NCBI GenBank assembly: GCA_000004985.1 | Contig: GG738866.1 | From: Naegleria gruberi | Taxonomy: Eukaryota | Reading direction: 5' to 3' (one strand) | Length of the DNA: 64,000 bases | Shown here: positions 11,706 through 45,247 of the stretch, piece after piece | Position numbering within the stretch: the stretch's first letter is position 1 | Layout: each line of letters opens with the position of its first letter | The notes under the pieces: model-generated | Told to the model about the DNA's origin: nothing | Database searches by the model: none | What the model saw: the letters and a program-made list of their open reading frames with translations, nothing else | Position numbers and translations under genes: made by a program

Positions 11706-12989
11706 TTAGAGAGATGAAAATAAGGAATGAAGTAAATTATAGTACATGGTAGTATTGAATGAGTTGGCAACATTAATTTGAATGCCACTGGATGAAGAGT
11801 CCTTATAGACTCTTCCAGCAAACTCAGTTGTTGAGTTCACTACTGAGGAAAGGTCAATATTGACCTTTACTTGTTCGAATGTGAAAAGTTCAGGTCTAAT
11901 CAAAAAGGAAGCAGTTATTGGATCATAGGTACAAGAAACTGGATTAATGGTCAGTAAATCTGATAGAAGTGAAGCAGTATTGGATTTTCCCTTCTTGTTG
12001 AAAAGTAATTGTTTCAAATTGGTCAACTGTTCTGAAGAAATTGCTTCCTCATTAGCAACATCCAAACCAATCATGAAGAATTTCTCTGAAAATATTTGCA
12101 TTACTACCTGAACACTCTTTGCATCACAATGATAATTCCACTCCATATCTCTATTTCCATTAAAAAGTGAATTTCCTCCCATTGAAACAATTCTTCTGAC
12201 CTTTCTCTTGAACATTTCCAATTTTGTTGGATTATTTCTAATCCACAATGCAATATTAGTCAGTGGACCAATAGCCAAAATGGTCAGTGAATTATCTGGA
12301 AGAAATTCCAATTGAGTTACTTGATTATTGAGATGTGAGAATGTTGGTTCCAAATGAAAAGTTTCCTCTCCTTCTTTCGACCTATCAATCAATTGATTCT
12401 TCAATGCAAATCCAGTTTTTTGTAAAAATTCAGTTTGTCGTTGATCCACATTCGAATACCAATCAGCATCTTCAAATCTGAACTTTTGTAAATTATCTTT
12501 CAAACCAAAATTTGATCCCTTCTCGATTTTAAATGATCTATCTTTTGAAATACTACTCAGAGTATTGGTTTTTAGCATGTTTGCAATAATTTCCTTTCCA
12601 ATAGTTGCATTCGGCGTCATTCCATGCACAGACGAAAGTGAGCTCAATATCAATAAATTATTTTGCTGCAGTGATTTCTGATTATTCAAATGAATTAGCA
12701 ACACTTGTATTGCAAATATATCATCCATTCCAACATCCGAATCAATCCACAAATATTCACTCAATGAATCCAATTTTCTTTCATTTCTTTTCGAAACTCC
12801 AAACGAAACTCCCAAAATTATACCCAAAGCAACCATTACCAACAAGCTAGCTCCAACAACCAACACCACCTGAATCAAACCTCTTTTCTCCATTCCATCT
12901 GAAAATTCAGATTGCCCTGACATGTAATATCCAACAGCAGCAGCATCAGATGAATCATTCTCAACTTGCACATAATTTATTTCTTTCAT
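11706..12989 (-). CDS. Inosine-uridine-preferring nucleoside hydrolase (IUNH) family protein with an N-terminal TM anchor.
   Basis: WIDSDVGMDDIFAIQVLL (DxDxxxDD Ca-binding motif), ILAIGPLTNIALWIRNNP, RRIVSMGGNSLFNGN. Single ORF with no intron. Confidence 0.7.
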   Translation of the reverse strand: MKEINYVQVENDSSDAAAVGYYMSGQSEFSDGMEKRGLIQVVLVVGASLLVMVALGIILGVSFGVSKRNERKLDSLSEYLWIDSDVGMDDIFAIQVLLIHLNNQKSLQQNNLLILSSLSSVHGMTPNATIGKEIIANMLKTNTLSSISKDRSFKIEKGSNFGLKDNLQKFRFEDADWYSNVDQRQTEFLQKTGFALKNQLIDRSKEGEETFHLEPTFSHLNNQVTQLEFLPDNSLTILAIGPLTNIALWIRNNPTKLEMFKRKVRRIVSMGGNSLFNGNRDMEWNYHCDAKSVQVVMQIFSEKFFMIGLDVANEEAISSEQLTNLKQLLFNKKGKSNTASLLSDLLTINPVSCTYDPITASFLIRPELFTFEQVKVNIDLSSVVNSTTEFAGRVYKDSSSSGIQINVANSFNTTMYYNLLHSLFSSL

Positions 12990-13218: not shown

Positions 13219-14220
13219 TTGGTCAACCAATATTTTCAAAAACAAATGCAACAAGAAACATTAGTGCAGCTCCAGTTAGATGAAGCATTACAATCCAATT
13301 TACTCTCCACTAAAATCAGAGACATTCCCCACCATCTCAAACATGAAATAATCATTGCTCCGATCATCTCCGCCGAACAATTAAAGGAAACCATTAAATT
13401 TCTCGATACAAGACGTGATTGGTTTACCATTCTCAAATTTATGAACGAACACAATACAGGATATAATCCATTCTACAATGTTTCCATCAGTGCATTGGGA
13501 TTTAAATATTCACTTAGTTGGTGCTATAATTTATTAGAAATTGCCTCCAATTTGGGAAAGGAATTGAAATTTGATACAAATTTTATATTTCAAATAGTTG
13601 GGATAATTCCTGGATTTATTTATAATAATTCGAATGATGTTATTAGAAACGATAGAGAAGTTGTGTTGAGATCTGTTAAGAGATTGGGTTCCATGCTTGG
13701 TGTTGCTTCTGATAGATTGAAAGATGACAGAGAAATAGTAATAACAGCTGTCAAGCAAGATGGTGAAAGTTTACGCTATGCAAATGAAAGATTTAGGAGT
13801 GATAGAGAAATAGTCCTAGCAGCTGTCAAAACTGCTGGTTTGGCATATGTTCATGAATCATTAAGGAATGACAGAGAAATTGTTGAGCTGGCAATTTCAC
13901 ATTGTGGATCATTTCTATCAGGTGCAAGTGAGGAAATGAAAAAAGATAGAGAAATTGTAATGAAAGCCATTTCGACAAGTTCACAAGGATGTGCATTTCA
14001 ATATGTGAGTCGAGAATTAAAGCTCGATAAGAAATTTGTTTTACAAGTTCTCAGAAAAACTGAGGGACAAGCTCTTTGTTATGTGAGTGAAGAATTAATT
14101 AAGGATAAGGAATTTCTTGTTGAAATATTGAAAGTTATTGGGACATCTTTCACGAATACATATGTTATTGGGAGAATTATTAAGGATGATAGAGATTTGA
14201 TATTATTAATTGCTAAATAA
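13219..14220 (+). CDS. DUF4116-type repeat protein (tandem DREIV...L.YA repeats). The repeat series continues in frame for 79 more codons beyond a single TAA at 14218..14220.
   Basis: Repeated units: DREVVLRSVKRLGSMLGVASDRLKDDREIVITAVKQDGESLRYANERFRSDREIVLAAVKTAGLAYVHESLRNDREIVELAI... Downstream in the same frame: DGFIIKYINTELKKDKDIAFEAVSQNVNVFQHIDKSLKDDKEFVLKLAKK..., ending at 14457. Confidence 0.6.
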   Translation: MVNQYFQKQMQQETLVQLQLDEALQSNLLSTKIRDIPHHLKHEIIIAPIISAEQLKETIKFLDTRRDWFTILKFMNEHNTGYNPFYNVSISALGFKYSLSWCYNLLEIASNLGKELKFDTNFIFQIVGIIPGFIYNNSNDVIRNDREVVLRSVKRLGSMLGVASDRLKDDREIVITAVKQDGESLRYANERFRSDREIVLAAVKTAGLAYVHESLRNDREIVELAISHCGSFLSGASEEMKKDREIVMKAISTSSQGCAFQYVSRELKLDKKFVLQVLRKTEGQALCYVSEELIKDKEFLVEILKVIGTSFTNTYVIGRIIKDDRDLILLIAK

Positions 14221-14485
14221 GATGGATTTATAATCAAATATATTAATACAGAGCTAAAGAAGGATAAGGACATTGCATTTGAAGCTGTCAGTCAAAATGT
14301 CAATGTTTTTCAACATATTGACAAGTCATTAAAGGATGACAAGGAATTTGTGTTGAAATTGGCAAAGAAAAATTCAAAGATTATTCAATTTTTGTCCAAA
14401 GTACTAAGGAAAGATCGTGAATTCATGTCTCAAATCAATAAACTAAACCTCGATTAAGAAATTAACATGTTTCCAAACTTTCATT

Positions 14486-15139
14486 TTATTTACAACCAAC
14501 TTGTTTAGTCAAAATAAATCTTGAACTATCAATTCCTTGTTTCCTAAAAGCAACCATAATATTACTCAAAGTTTGTTGTGGTAATTGACGTTGTCTTCCC
14601 AAAATCCATGAAATTTCATAATGATAAACACCCAAAACACTGAAACAACTGAAAACCATTGCATAATTATTGTAATCTGTGTCAATAACCCAATATGGAG
14701 CATAGAATGGGTTTCCACCAACTGAAACAAGTAATTTTGCTGGTTCTTTATCATCTGGACAATATCCAACACCAGTAACAGTTGTCAAATTTCCATCATA
14801 TATTTCAGAATTGGAAACTAATACTTGTGAAGGTTCCTTTGGATTAATGGTATAGTTTGCTTGAATACAGACACCACCACGTTCCATGATATTATCAAAA
14901 CGAGCAATTTCATACCAAAGTCCCATGTATTTAGCTAAATTGAATTCTTGCATGGTTGAAACTTTTTGACATTTTCCCCAATCAGCAGAGACGAATGTTG
15001 TGTAAAGAAGTGAAATGACAATGACAGCAATGAGGAGGGTTTGTTTGAACATTTTTTGAGTTTTTGATGGTGTTGTTTCTTTCTGGTTTTGTGGTTGTTT
15101 TATTGGTTGGATAAAGGATTCTCTCTTGTTCAAGTCCAC
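14486..15139 (-). CDS. Bacterial-type (Blc/ApoD-like) lipocalin with an N-terminal TM/signal segment.
   Basis: FNLAKYMGLWYEIARFDNIMERG (lipocalin SCR1, xRYxGxWYEIA), ...SWILGRQRQLPQQT...GIDSSRFILTKQ (compare E. coli Blc YLWILSRTP...GFDVSKFIWVQQ). Confidence 0.75.
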   Translation of the reverse strand: MDLNKRESFIQPIKQPQNQKETTPSKTQKMFKQTLLIAVIVISLLYTTFVSADWGKCQKVSTMQEFNLAKYMGLWYEIARFDNIMERGGVCIQANYTINPKEPSQVLVSNSEIYDGNLTTVTGVGYCPDDKEPAKLLVSVGGNPFYAPYWVIDTDYNNYAMVFSCFSVLGVYHYEISWILGRQRQLPQQTLSNIMVAFRKQGIDSSRFILTKQVGCK

Positions 15140-24345: not shown

Positions 24346-26422
24346 ATGGTTAATAAGACCAAACATTTATCGAATAGTATTCTTCCCAATAATAATAACA
24401 ACAATAACCATGGAAATAATCATGGAAGTGGTCAAGAAGAACCACCATCACTACATCCCATCTCATGTAATCGGTGCCGATCTAGACACACCAAATGTGA
24501 TAAACTACTTCCAACATGTTCATATTGCATGGAGAATAACCTTCCATGCATTTACGAAACTCCCAAAAAGTTGAGGAAAAACTACATGGCAGAATTTGTT
24601 GATTTGAATCAGAATGTAGTTTCTTCTGCATTGACTCACTTGCAAAATCCCCAATCGAAATATAAGGTCTACAAATTCAGTGTAGGAGAAAAGAAAAAGA
24701 AGAAGAGGAGAGAAAGACCAAGTAGAAATGAACATCTTCAACAACATGTTGTTGCATCTTCAAATTCCACTTTGGAAAATATGGATAGTAATAGTCCTGC
24801 TAGGATCAAATGCACAATCTATTAATTTGCATGCCACTCAACAAGAATTTGAACGATCACAACAACAACAACATAAAACATATAGAGCATTCATGTACAA
24901 ATTAATGACAAATCACTTGGATGAGAAGCTATTGTTAAAAACATTCCGAACCGATGCTTACACCTACTACACACAGTATATTGCGTAAGTTTACTGTTTA
25001 TACCCATCTATTTACCTTAATAGTTTTGGAACGACATTGCTGAGTGAAAAAACAATTGAGAGAGTTTATGAATTTGTGGATGAGGACCAAATGACTCAAA
25101 TATATCCTGAGGATGTTCTCTCACTCATCTATGCAATACATGCAGTGAATTTGTTTGTTTTTGAACAACGAGATGTATCTTTTAAGAGTTTTGAGAAGTC
25201 ACTTCGATTATTGCAGTACGATCCATCAAATATTGAGAATTTAATTTTATGTTTGGATGTTGCTGCAAATGGATCAGAAGGTTCTAGCGTTTTATGTTTA
25301 TCGAGCGATGGAAGCAGTTCAGATGTCTACTTTTCTAGTAATAGAGATCACAATTCATTATTTTTAATTAGTGCAAGACTGATGCTTTCACAATATTGTT
25401 TATGTTTGGGATTTATTCCTACAGCAAGCCATTTTCTTAATGAGGCAGATATCATGCTGAAGAATAGATTTCCTACTTACAGAAATCAGAGCTACTTGCC
25501 ATCAAGCATTCTAGGAGCAATGGTGGATCCTATTGCCTCTCTTTATCAAGGACTAACACCAGACGAAATCTTTGTTTTGAAATACAGATTAGTATGTGGT
25601 GTTAAATTAGACGATATTAGATTTTTCCAAGAGAGATTGCCTCAATATATTGGATATTCAACACCTCAAACTTTTGAACCCTATACGAGAACGTCATCTG
25701 TGCTATTAGATGACCCTAAATATTTATTTTCTTCCTATGTTAACAAGTATATATTTGGTACAGCACTGTTTATTATTGGAATGGGAAAGAAGGATTTGCT
25801 GAACTTACTTCTTTCACCAAATATTGTACTGAAAGATCAGCCAAATATACCATTCATGATCATTGGAGTATTGGATTTTAATGGAAAATTATTGAAAAAA
25901 CTCACAATTGATAGATTCAAAATGACTGAATCAGAGGTAAGCTCTCTTACCATCCCAACTGAGATTACCCATAGATATGCAGACTTGGTTTTCACATTCC
26001 AGAAAATATTCACGACAAGCTATAGCTTCCTGGTATTGCATGAAGTTGTTATCAATTATTCTAGTCCTCTCACCTTGATGAACATTGGCAGAAATGATAT
26101 TGATATTGAAAATGTTAGAAAATGTTTGAATTTTAGAAATGAATTTGCTGATGAGTTGAGTGATCTGTATGCTGTTTTACCTGATTACACCATTCATTTC
26201 ATAAGTTTAGTAGTAATTACAGTATTTCAAGTTGCAAAAATTCACTATGACAAGATATTAGATAGTGGAATGAACTTTGAACGAAAATTATTAACAAGAT
26301 TGAAAAATGATTTTAGAATGTTGCATATATTAAGAAAGAAATTCCCACAATTATTTGAACATGACCATCTCATTACTTTCTACAATGCAATTGAGGATAA
26401 AATAAACCAAATATCTAATTAG
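24346..26422 (+). CDS. Zn(II)2Cys6 (GAL4-type) binuclear-cluster transcription factor with a fungal_trans-like middle domain. One 39-nt intron at 24985..25023, plus an unresolved frame discontinuity near 24820.
   Basis: CNRCRSRHTKCDKLLPTCSYCMENNLPC (CX2CX6CX6CX2CX6C). The exon joining ...YTQYIA|FGTTLLSEKTIERVYEFV... (GTAAGT donor) is clear. The DNA-binding ORF (24346..24825) and the next exon (24728..24984) are in different frames, with no GT..AG between them. Confidence 0.6.
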
Positions 26423-32184: not shown

Positions 32185-34092
32185 TTATTTGTGTATGAGT
32201 GAATCAATAACTGAATAGATGGTACTTCCCATAATAACTAATCCCATCAAGAGTGTTAAGGCAGAACAGATTTTCAAAATTGTAAATCTTCCAGGTTCTA
32301 ACTTTAAAGCGAGTAAACATGGTAAAATATAAGCCATGCTACAAGCACTAACACCTCCTGTGATATTGAAAACAATTCCCAAATCAGTTACTGAAAGGGC
32401 AATAACTAAGGCCAACCCCATAACAAAGAATGTTGCACAATAGTGAATTACAGACTTCTTCAATTGTTTAGCCTTCTTGCTAACACCATTTTCATCGAGG
32501 TCTGGATTATTATTTAGGAGAGCATTGGTTTCTGTGCTAGTCTTCTTTTTTGGCCAGCACCCAATAATTCCATTCTTTGAATTGTACCAATCTTCAAACA
32601 AAACTTCTATAACTAGAATGATACTATTTCTTGGCATGAATGCAGAATATGGAATTGAGAAAACAATAGAAACTGTCAAAAACATTCTTCCTACAATAGC
32701 AGCTGTGACATTCTTTGGGAATAAGTCCAAAACATTGGCTTCTTCCAAATTTCTATCCCAGAAAATCAAATAACCACCAATACCCATAGCTGTACAACAA
32801 ATAACAGTCATAATAACAGTCGCAAATACTACAATGTAATACCTCAGTCTAGTAGCTCTTCTCAACTCTTGGAAAACGTGGAAGCTCATATCGTGACATA
32901 TATAAATGTACGCCAGATTACCAAGAGATGACATAAACTTTGGATGTACAAACTGAAAAGCTTCCTGCCTGTCGTGAGGAATGTATCGTTTAGGTCCAAA
33001 TAAAAGCTCATAATTTACAATAGCTGTGACAGCAAATACAGAAAAAACAGCTGCAAATGAGAAGAATGCAAAACTACCAAGTCTCTTTTGAAGAGCAATT
33101 GGAAGCAAGGCAACTGCCAAATAAATTAAGATAGCTCTTCTACTCAAAAATATACTATCAGAGTCAAATGCATATGCTAAAAGATCAGGAACAACTCTAT
33201 TATGTGTTAATCTATAAAATTAGAGAAATACATACTGTCCAAACATGAGTAATTGAGCACAAGCACCTCCAAAATTGAAGAAAAATATAAAAACACAAGT
33301 CAAAAAGAATCCAATCTTTCCAAAACCTAACATGGCCAACTCTGGTAATGTAGTTTTTAAATGCCTCCTTGATAATTCGTACACTAAACAAAGTGTGAAA
33401 GCAGTCACTACACCAAACAATACAAACCAAATAATTGACATGTAAAGACCACTGGATGCAACTACTTGAGGCATACTGACAGTACCTGGGCTAATAACAT
33501 CATTAATTAAATTCCAAATTGAGAAAAATAATCCTGTCTTTTTCATACTCATTAATTCCTTCCATAATTTGTCTTGTCTCTGTTTTCTCTTCAATTTTCG
33601 AGCTTCCTTTTCCTCATCAGGTAAATTTTCATTTGAAGTATTAATTGAATTTACATTTTCCAAACTATTAGTTGATTTCTTTTTTGGTACAAAATAATCA
33701 TGATTCATGTCATTTACTACAAGAGTAGAACCTTCATCAGTTCTCCTTGTTGTATCTATTGGAACTCGTTGACCAGTTGAATCAAAGAAGACAACTTCTT
33801 CTTCTTGGTCTTCATGATTTTTCTTATTGAATATCTTACTAAACAATGACTTCTTTTTAGATTTTGGTGGATATGATCCTGCTTGAATATCATCATAATT
33901 AGGAGCAGAATAATACATTCCATTTTGTTCTACACTATTACCATGGTGATTACTACTATTATTATTAATTAATATTCCTGCAGATGGTTGATATGAAAAG
34001 GCTTGGTCAAATGTTGGTGAAACAATAATTGATGAGCCTGTAGTAGTTTCGGACGAATCCATCGTATTGAAATGATATTGATGCGGAGCCAT
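32185..34092 (-). CDS. Amino-acid transporter (Aa_trans / AVT-SLC38-like) with a low-complexity N-terminal extension. One very short intron near 33197-33235 (24 or 39 nt).
   Basis: N-terminal exon ...SPGTVSMPQVVASSGLYMSIIWFVLFGVVTAFTLCLVYELSRR...AQLLMFGQ, then a GTATGT donor. C-terminal exon ...AILIYLAVALLPIALQKRLGSFAFFSFAAVFSV...IPYSAFMPRNSII... (11-TM Aa_trans pattern). The first ATG (MAPHQYHF) is at 34090..34092. Confidence 0.6.
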
Positions 34093-34801
34093 TTCTAAAA
34101 TAAATATATTTAAAAATGATAACAAAATTATAATAATAATAAATAAATATTTCAAAATAAGATAATTTTTCTCTCTTCAAAAATTTAATATTGTGTGTTG
34201 TGTTGTGATGATGGAAGGTTTTGTTTTCAACTCGCTTCTATAACTTGGAGAAAGAGAATTGATGATGAGCAAGTGTGTGAAACGTTTTTTTCTTCTTCGA
34301 TCCTCGCCGATTGTTTTGTGAAAACTCCGAGGAGAGAGTTTTGCAAAGGATGAACAAGTTTGGGAGTGAGACCAATTTGAAATACAAACAAGAAAGTGCA
34401 GAAGTTTTCAATTCCAATTCAATTGAAGTATTTTCTTTCTCAGAAACATGAAATATTGAGTTTTTCAATATTTTCATTTAAATTCATCACATACATGGTT
34501 GATTCCTATGATATAAAGTATTCCAAATGAAACTATTTGAAAAGAATAGACTAATGGGATCAGTAAATAGTTCAATAATCTTTTCTTTTTCGAATAGAAA
34601 CTGAACATTACCAGATATTACAAATTTTCGAGAAATTCCTTACATCACTTCTCACCAACAACAAATGTAACTGAACGATTTATTGAATTAACCAATAACG
34701 TTCTTTTGAAAATCATCATGAGACTAATAAGGATCGGAAATAGATGGAGGACATTCTTATTGTAAACTTCTAAAACAATGATGTATTAATAATACAAAAA
34801 A

Positions 34802-42482: not shown

Positions 42483-42555
42483 TGCCGACACCAGGGATCG
42501 AACCAGGGACCTTAAGATCTTCAGTCTTACGCTCTCCCAACTGAGCTATGTCGGC
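42483..42555 (-). tRNA. tRNA-Phe (anticodon GAA), 73 nt, no intron.
   Basis: The minus-strand sequence GCCGACATAGCTCAGTTGGGAGAGCGTAAGACTGAAGATCTTAAGGTCCCTGGTTCGATCCCTGGTGTCGGCA folds into a cloverleaf: 7-bp acceptor stem, D-arm AGCTCAGTTGGGAGAGC, anticodon loop CTGAAGA, T-loop TTCGATC. One U:U mismatch in the T-stem. Confidence 0.85.
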
Positions 42556-45036: not shown

Positions 45037-45247
45037 ACACATTGTATCATATTTTGTAATCTCTCGTTCCGTATCTTTGATTAGCCCGCCATTGAGCGAA
45101 AACGCAGTTCATAAAAAATTGGTGCATGAAAGTAACATCATTGTGAACGTGTGATCATATCAACAACTGTTATTTCCTCAAATCATCATTGATTTCAAGA
45201 CAATTATTAAACAAAATAATAGATTCATTCCAGCAGCATTACACAAT

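What the first reader, a model, noticed from the sequence alone, without database searches (positions are those of the whole stretch)
14215..14460. Single in-frame TAA inside a perfectly continuing DUF4116 repeat array
The repeat protein at 13219..14220 stops at TAA (14218..14220), but the same frame continues with no further stop for 79 codons (DGFIIKYINTELKKDKDIAFEAVSQNV...KDREFMSQINKLNLD*) and keeps the repeat periodicity (..LLIAK*DGFIIKY.. where other repeats have K/Q-x-G-x-x-L-x-Y). There is no convincing GT..AG intron spanning the stop; the only GT upstream, GTTATT, is weak. Candidate explanations are a recent nonsense mutation (CAA, AAA or GAA to TAA), a base-call error, or programmed read-through. 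Global reassignment is unlikely because other genes here end with TAA at plausible C-termini.
Basis: seen in the sequence. Interest (0 to 1): 0.5.

Follow-up and report, generated by a model that had tools for sequence, protein, structure and literature searches.

The report
Premature stop in Naegleria repeat gene
One of three closely related repeat-protein genes in the amoeba Naegleria gruberi has a tyrosine codon changed by one base into a stop codon, which is either a very recent gene-truncating mutation or a sequencing error, and is ordinary in both cases.

Summary
In this Naegleria gruberi window, the DUF4116 repeat gene (ATG 13246; GenBank model XP_002677544.1, 324 aa) stops at TAA 14218-14220. 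The same frame then runs 78 more codons to TAA 14455-14457.

- The downstream peptide is DUF4116 (Pfam E=1e-21). It is 82-84% identical to the C-termini of two full-length N. gruberi paralogs (400 and 410 aa).
- Both paralogs align across the stop without a gap and carry Tyr there (LLTAK-Y-DGFIIKY).
- The stop cuts repeat unit 8 of about 10.5, after its first helix.
- The downstream part shows no extra divergence, no second lesion and normal codon bias, so the change is very recent or not real.
- An intron is excluded. The smallest in-frame GT..AG would remove 30 conserved codons.
- Reassignment is excluded. TAA ends 25 of 34 long open frames, and it ends this gene where the paralogs end.
- Programmed read-through is unsupported. 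The context is UAA-G, there is no notable RNA structure, and the stop is not conserved.

Most likely this is a recent, possibly heterozygous, nonsense mutation. A base-call error is second. No independent reads could be reached. Interest is low.

The parts
13246..14217 (+). Coding sequence of the truncated DUF4116 protein as annotated (NAEGRDRAFT_67278, XP_002677544.1, 324 aa). Residues 1-135 are a paralog-specific N-terminal region. The repeats start at D136 (nt 13651).
   Evidence: 100% identical to P0001. Pfam DUF4116 E=2e-76.
13651..14454 (+). DUF4116 repeat array of about 10.5 units of roughly 25 aa. It is continuous through the stop.
   Evidence: Unit split and HMM built from the units. 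Pfam hits on both sides of the stop. The AlphaFold model of paralog P0003 is a continuous helical solenoid with pLDDT above 90 from about residue 140 to 410.
14188..14262 (+). Repeat unit 8 (DRDLILLIAK * DGFIIKYINTELKK), which the stop interrupts.
   Evidence: The paralogs read DRDLILLTAK-Y-DGFIIKYIN.
14218..14220 (+). Premature TAA at the position where both paralogs have Tyr. It is one third-position change from TAT/TAC. The following base is G.
14221..14454 (+). 78-codon remainder of the ancestral coding sequence. It is intact and conserved, and it is untranslated if the TAA is real.
   Evidence: 82-84% identical to P0002/P0003, against 74-77% upstream. BLASTP E=4e-43. In-frame codon-usage score 0.267 per codon, against 0.243 upstream.
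14455..14457 (+). Ancestral stop codon (TAA), within 2 residues of the C-termini of the paralogs.

Best explanation
The TAA at 14218-14220 is a genuine and very recent nonsense substitution. A Tyr codon (TAT or TAC) changed to TAA by one third-position transversion. This happened in one of three N. gruberi-specific paralogs that share an N-terminal region followed by a DUF4116 alpha-solenoid. The change is either fixed in the sequenced strain or is one allele of a heterozygous site captured by the assembly. Ribosomes terminate there. The product is a 324-aa protein that ends after the first helix of repeat unit 8 and lacks the last ~2.6 units (78 residues). The remaining 234 nt are a former coding sequence that has not yet begun to decay. 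Shown here: the stop itself, its position in the repeat, Tyr in the paralogs, and the absence of decay downstream. Inferred: that the base is real, that termination is efficient, and that the truncated copy is a young pseudogene or a crippled paralog backed up by the two intact copies.
For: The paralogs P0002 and P0003 align across the stop with no gap and both carry Y there. The downstream 78 codons are still open, match DUF4116 (E=1e-21) and match the paralog C-terminus (E=4e-43). The window-specific branch length is 0.151 downstream against 0.202 upstream, so there is no acceleration after the stop. Codon bias is retained downstream. TAA is the normal terminator in this window, ending 25 of 34 long open frames. 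The ancestral ORF ends in TAA at the same place as the paralogs. The public annotation already ends the model at this TAA. Naegleria is described as mainly a heterozygous diploid (PMC9928731, section 3.2.3). An independent N. gruberi-like data set differs from this window by about 0.4%, so segregating single-base variants, nonsense alleles included, are plentiful. My rough estimate, from general knowledge and not computed here, is that such alleles outnumber consensus substitution errors in an ~8x Sanger assembly.
Against: Nothing here verifies the base independently. The complete absence of decay downstream is equally what a sequencing error predicts. No transcript or peptide data were available. 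The paralog DNA could not be fetched, so dN/dS was not computed and the paralog Tyr codon (TAT or TAC) is unknown.
Confidence: 0.62

Rival explanations
1. The TAA is a base-call or consensus error in the assembly. The real codon would be TAT/TAC (Tyr), and the gene would encode an intact 403-aa protein like its paralogs.
For: One base separates TAA from the paralogs' Tyr codon. Downstream conservation, codon bias and an ORF ending at the paralog C-terminus are exactly what an intact gene would show. No second disabling lesion is present.
Against: Substitution errors in multi-fold Sanger consensus are rare (my general knowledge, not tested here). The flanking sequence is not a homopolymer or a low-complexity run. 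No full-length Y, Q, K or E version of the protein exists as an exact sequence in a 15-billion-protein collection, although that collection seems to lack this locus from any second source.
Confidence: 0.28
2. The UAA is read through, either by programme or by leakiness. Most ribosomes would stop, giving a 324-aa form. A fraction would insert a near-cognate amino acid and make the 403-aa full-length form. Tyr, Gln and Lys are the residues inserted at UAA in yeast (PMC4150775), and Tyr insertion would restore the ancestral sequence.
For: The downstream frame is open, conserved and codon-biased. Tyr is both the paralog residue and a known read-through insertion at UAA (PMC4150775 abstract).
Against: The stop is not conserved, because both paralogs have a sense codon. 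Conservation of the stop together with the extension is the signature of programmed read-through. UAA followed by a purine is generally an efficient terminator, and the sequence after it (GAUGGA) is not one of the known leaky contexts such as CUAG or CARYYA (general knowledge). The 120 nt after the stop fold no better than shuffles (z=-1.08, 28 of 200 shuffles fold as well). The downstream conservation is fully explained by recency.
Confidence: 0.04
3. The stop lies in an intron, or TAA is a sense codon in this genome.
For: Another in-frame TAA in this window (33220-33222, minus strand) is indeed intronic and leaves long open frames on both sides.
Against: The nearest upstream GT is 14164. The smallest in-frame GT..AG spanning the stop removes 30 codons, all of which align to conserved paralog residues. 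TAA terminates 25 of 34 long open frames and terminates this gene's ancestral ORF. Only two TAAs in the window have at least 60 open codons on both sides and confirmed homologous coding sequence on both sides. This is one of them, and the other is the intronic one.
Confidence: 0.01

Closest known systems
Young (unprocessed) pseudogene or nonsense allele in a duplicated gene family
   Same: There is a single disabling substitution relative to intact paralogs. The rest of the ORF is intact and the paralogs provide redundancy.
   Different: There is no second lesion and no relaxed-constraint signal yet, so pseudogene status is inferred from one codon only. The base itself is unverified.
DUF4116 (PF13475) helical repeat proteins
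   Same: Strong Pfam matches lie on both sides of the stop. The predicted fold is an alpha-solenoid, as modelled for the family in PMC8078820.
   Different: Residues 1-135 form an N-terminal region that is well conserved among the three N. gruberi paralogs (75-90% identity). All other hits share only the repeats, with the best at 27-38% identity. The function of the family is unknown. No solved structure matches beyond generic solenoids (no hit with E<=0.001).
Programmed stop-codon read-through genes (for example UGA-CUAG extensions in animals and fungi, or the TMV-type UAG-CARYYA)
   Same: An in-frame stop is followed by a conserved, coding-like extension.
   Different: The stop is absent from the homologs, it is a UAA in a non-leaky context, and there is no stimulatory structure.

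Membership tests
DUF4116 (PF13475) repeat protein | Match to the Pfam profile above the gathering score (24.9 bits) | tested here: met
   Upstream ORF 251.7 bits with 7 stretches. Downstream peptide 76.7 bits with 2 stretches.
Nonsense-disabled paralog (young pseudogene or nonsense allele) | A stop codon at a position that is a sense codon in intact, colinear homologs | tested here: met
   P0002 and P0003 have Tyr at the stop position and no gaps.
Nonsense-disabled paralog (young pseudogene or nonsense allele) | Relaxed constraint or further lesions downstream of the stop | tested here: not met
   Downstream identity is 82-84% against 74-77% upstream. The window branch is 0.151 against 0.202. 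There is no further stop or frameshift. This is compatible only with a very recent event.
Nonsense-disabled paralog (young pseudogene or nonsense allele) | The base confirmed by independent reads | not testable with these tools
   No second source of this locus was found. One search was uninformative.
Programmed stop-codon read-through | The stop codon conserved together with the extension in homologs | tested here: not met
   Both paralogs carry a sense (Tyr) codon. No closer orthologs were found. The best non-gruberi hits are 27-38% identical and match the repeats only.
Programmed stop-codon read-through | A leaky stop context or a downstream stimulatory RNA structure | tested here: not met
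   The context is UAA-GAUGGA. The fold of 14221-14340 gives z=-1.08.
Programmed stop-codon read-through | Translation beyond the stop demonstrated | not testable with these tools
   This needs ribosome profiling or proteomics.
Stop-codon reassignment (TAA as a sense codon) | TAA rarely terminates genes, and in-frame TAAs are common at conserved positions | tested here: not met
   TAA ends 25 of 34 open frames of at least 200 codons. The only other confirmed in-gene TAA is inside a 39-nt intron.
Spliceosomal intron containing the stop | GT..AG boundaries, and a gap in the homologs over the removed segment | tested here: not met
   The smallest in-frame GT..AG is 14164-14253 (30 codons) with a weak GTTATT donor. 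The paralogs are gap-free and conserved over that segment.

The most novel reading that the evidence does not exclude
The UAA is real and is partly read through by near-cognate tRNA-Tyr. One gene would then yield both a truncated and an ancestral-sequence full-length DUF4116 protein, which would be a very young, not yet conserved case of functional read-through in a heterolobosean.
Probability: 0.03. Interest if true: 0.4.

Novelty: already known. Interest (0 to 1): 0.08.

Why it matters
It matters little. At most it corrects an annotation: the GenBank model XP_002677544.1 (324 aa) is a truncated version of a ~403-aa protein family member. It is also an example of a just-disabled paralog. Scans for recoding should check such single in-frame stops against paralogs before treating them as read-through candidates. 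The same window also shows the other common trap, a short intron whose length is a multiple of three and which contains a stop.

Tried and rejected
1. Intron: I enumerated all in-frame GT..AG pairs spanning the stop. This was rejected because the paralogs are colinear across the segment.

2. Genome-wide recoding: I scanned all six frames for single stops flanked by at least 60 open codons.
- The most striking case (33220-33222, minus strand) is a 39-nt intron of an Aa_trans gene. The annotated protein P0124 reads ...FGQVVPDLL, and a related species has an intron at the same site.
- Reassignment was therefore rejected.

3. Independent sequence of the locus: every route failed.
- Exact look-ups of P0001, P0002 and four neighbouring-gene products failed.
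- Exact look-ups of hypothetical Y, Q, K and E full-length versions failed.
- A degenerate-pattern scan of JGI metagenomes with the paralog alignment found nothing.
- An exact 30-mer with N at the variable base found nothing.

4. A second homology search with only the junction and downstream peptide returned nothing, not even the known paralogs. I treat it as uninformative rather than negative.

5. The paralog DNA was not obtainable, because no eukaryotic genome collection is offered. dN/dS was therefore not computed and protein-level branch lengths were used instead.

6. A fold search of the paralog model against the PDB gave only generic alpha-solenoid resemblance and no functional lead.

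Full report
**What the window is.** The window is AT-rich (about 34% GC), gene-dense eukaryotic DNA. The ORF in question is 100% identical to a GenBank "predicted protein [Naegleria gruberi]" (P0001 = XP_002677544.1 / EFC44800.1, NAEGRDRAFT_67278, 324 aa, on a 469,335-bp scaffold). The neighbours are ordinary genes:
- a nucleoside hydrolase at 11706-12989 on the minus strand;
- a lipocalin at 14486-15139 on the minus strand, convergent, whose stop lies 28 nt from the end of the downstream open frame;
- a P450 and an MBOAT gene.

**The observation.** TAA sits at 14218-14220 in the frame of the gene. The likely start is ATG 13246, as in the annotated model, because 13219 is only a TTG. After the TAA the frame stays open for 78 codons, to TAA at 14455-14457.
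- Pfam DUF4116 scores 251.7 bits (E=2e-76, 7 stretches) upstream.
- It scores 76.7 bits (E=1e-21) for the downstream peptide alone, and the first downstream stretch begins at profile position 12 of 49.
- Splitting the array at the D[RK][EDK] motif gives about 10.5 units of roughly 25 aa.
- The stop is residue 11 of unit 8: DRDLILLIAK * DGFIIKYINTELKK.

The description is therefore correct. The downstream frame is not a chance open frame. P(78 open codons) from composition is 0.003, and its homology to a paralog is E=4e-43.

**What the paralogs show.** N. gruberi has two full-length paralogs on another scaffold:
- P0002 (NAEGRDRAFT_74173, 400 aa, 77-78% identical);
- P0003 (NAEGRDRAFT_74193, 410 aa, 74-76% identical).

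Both align from the N-terminal region to the C-terminus with no gap at the stop, and both read LLTAK-Y-DGFIIKYIN. Both end within two residues of the window's second TAA. The stop codon therefore occupies a Tyr position. TAT or TAC to TAA is a single third-position transversion. Because the two paralogs are sisters (91-96% identical to each other), the root state is formally ambiguous. Within the array, the equivalent position of the other units is variable (R/Q/T/H/T/K/V/Q/K), so the repeat consensus does not decide the question.

**How old the change is.** Identity to the paralogs is 74-77% upstream and 82-84% downstream of the stop. In a three-sequence decomposition of p-distances, the window-specific branch is 0.202 upstream and 0.151 downstream. 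The twelve downstream differences shared against both paralogs are mostly conservative (K/R, D/E, A/V, S/T, L/F, L/M). The in-frame codon-usage score is 0.267 per codon downstream against 0.243 upstream, and it is negative in the other two frames. The 234 nt after the stop therefore show no sign of neutral decay. Either the stop arose very recently or it is not there in the organism.

**Alternatives tested.**
- *Intron.* The nearest GT upstream is at 14164 (GTTATT). The smallest in-frame GT..AG spanning the stop would delete 30 codons, all conserved and gap-free in the paralogs. This is excluded.
- *Reassignment.* Of 34 open frames of at least 200 codons, 25 end in TAA, 6 in TAG and 3 in TGA, and this gene's own ancestral terminus is TAA.
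- *A second in-frame TAA in the window.* A six-frame scan for single stops flanked by long open frames found one other striking case, TAA at 33220-33222 on the minus strand, with 318 and 344 open codons on either side. It splits an Aa_trans gene, with Pfam profile positions 4-108 before it and 120-409 after it. That TAA lies in a 39-nt GTATGT...AATAG intron (33235..33197). The annotated protein P0124 reads ...LLMFGQVVPDLL. A related Naegleria contig has an 84-nt GTAAGT...CAG intron at the same codon. It is a different and equally ordinary phenomenon.
- *Read-through.* The stop is UAA followed by G (GAUGGA), which is none of the known leaky contexts (general knowledge). The 120 nt downstream fold at -19.5 kcal/mol with z=-1.08, and 28 of 200 shuffles fold as well. 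The stop is not conserved in the paralogs. Basal read-through of UAA in yeast inserts Gln, Tyr or Lys (PMC4150775). Any leak could therefore regenerate the ancestral protein, but nothing suggests this is programmed.

**Consequence for the protein.** An AlphaFold2 model of paralog P0003 (46-sequence alignment, mean pLDDT 82.7, pLDDT above 90 for about residues 140-410) shows a continuous helical solenoid. Each unit is one ~10-residue helix plus two short helices. The homologous Tyr334 is the last residue of helix 325-334. Truncation there removes helices 336-409, which is about 2.6 of 10.5 units, and leaves a broken unit at the C-terminus. The fold agrees with the alpha-solenoid modelled for DUF4116 in PMC8078820. 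A PDB fold search returns only generic solenoids, with no hit at E<=0.001. The family's function remains unknown.

**Mutation or error.** This could not be settled.
- Independent Illumina data from an N. gruberi-like strain do exist: ERR1078381 / PRJEB11402, seen as Logan contig L001 and ENA contig L004. They are 99.4-99.6% identical to window 32730-34071.
- The DUF4116 locus could not be reached by exact protein look-ups of the gene, of hypothetical sense-codon versions or of neighbouring genes, nor by metagenome scans.
- The short-query homology search failed to return even the known paralogs and is uninformative.

Naegleria is described as mainly a heterozygous diploid (PMC9928731), and roughly 0.4% single-base divergence is seen between near-identical sources. 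I therefore judge a real, possibly heterozygous, nonsense variant more likely than a consensus substitution error. That weighting rests on general knowledge of Sanger assembly accuracy, not on a test made here.

**Verdict.** The finding is real in the sequence and ordinary in kind. It is a one-base Tyr-to-stop change in one of three paralogs, already reflected in the public annotation as a shorter model. My probabilities are:
- recent nonsense mutation or allele, about 0.62;
- sequencing error, about 0.28;
- read-through, about 0.04;
- intron or reassignment, about 0.01.

Noticed in passing
window 33197..33235 (minus strand); gene about 32185..34095: The Aa_trans gene (NAEGRDRAFT_67290) has an in-frame TAA (33220-33222) inside a 39-nt GTATGT..AATAG intron. 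The intron length is a multiple of 3, so one frame stays open for 318 and 344 codons on either side. A related Naegleria contig (L002 1627-1710) has an 84-nt intron at the same codon.
   Followed up: yes
L004 1..2774 versus window beyond 34071: The ENA metagenome contig (ERZ929261, from ERR1078381) is 99.6% identical to window 32730-34071. Its other 2.77 kb (gelsolin and LRR genes) has no match in the window. This is either a synteny break between strains or a chimeric contig.
   Followed up: partly
window 58608..60702 (minus strand): A second DUF4116 gene (663-aa ORF, Pfam E=1e-51). Its repeats appear to continue in another frame at 58608-58793 after '...DREVVL'. This is probably a 3' intron.
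   Followed up: no
window 24986..24988 (+) and 45152..45154 (+): Single stops (TAA and TGA) with about 100 open codons before them and 477 and 539 after. These are probably introns or 5' leaders of the genes at 25037-26422 and 45248-46774.
   Followed up: no
window 42483..42555 (minus strand): tRNA-Phe (GAA), the only tRNA gene found in the window.
   Followed up: no
window 13246..13650: The N-terminal ~135 residues are conserved among the three N. gruberi paralogs (75-90% identity). They have no Pfam match and were modelled with low confidence (pLDDT 31-74). No other hit in the homology search covered this region.
   Followed up: partly
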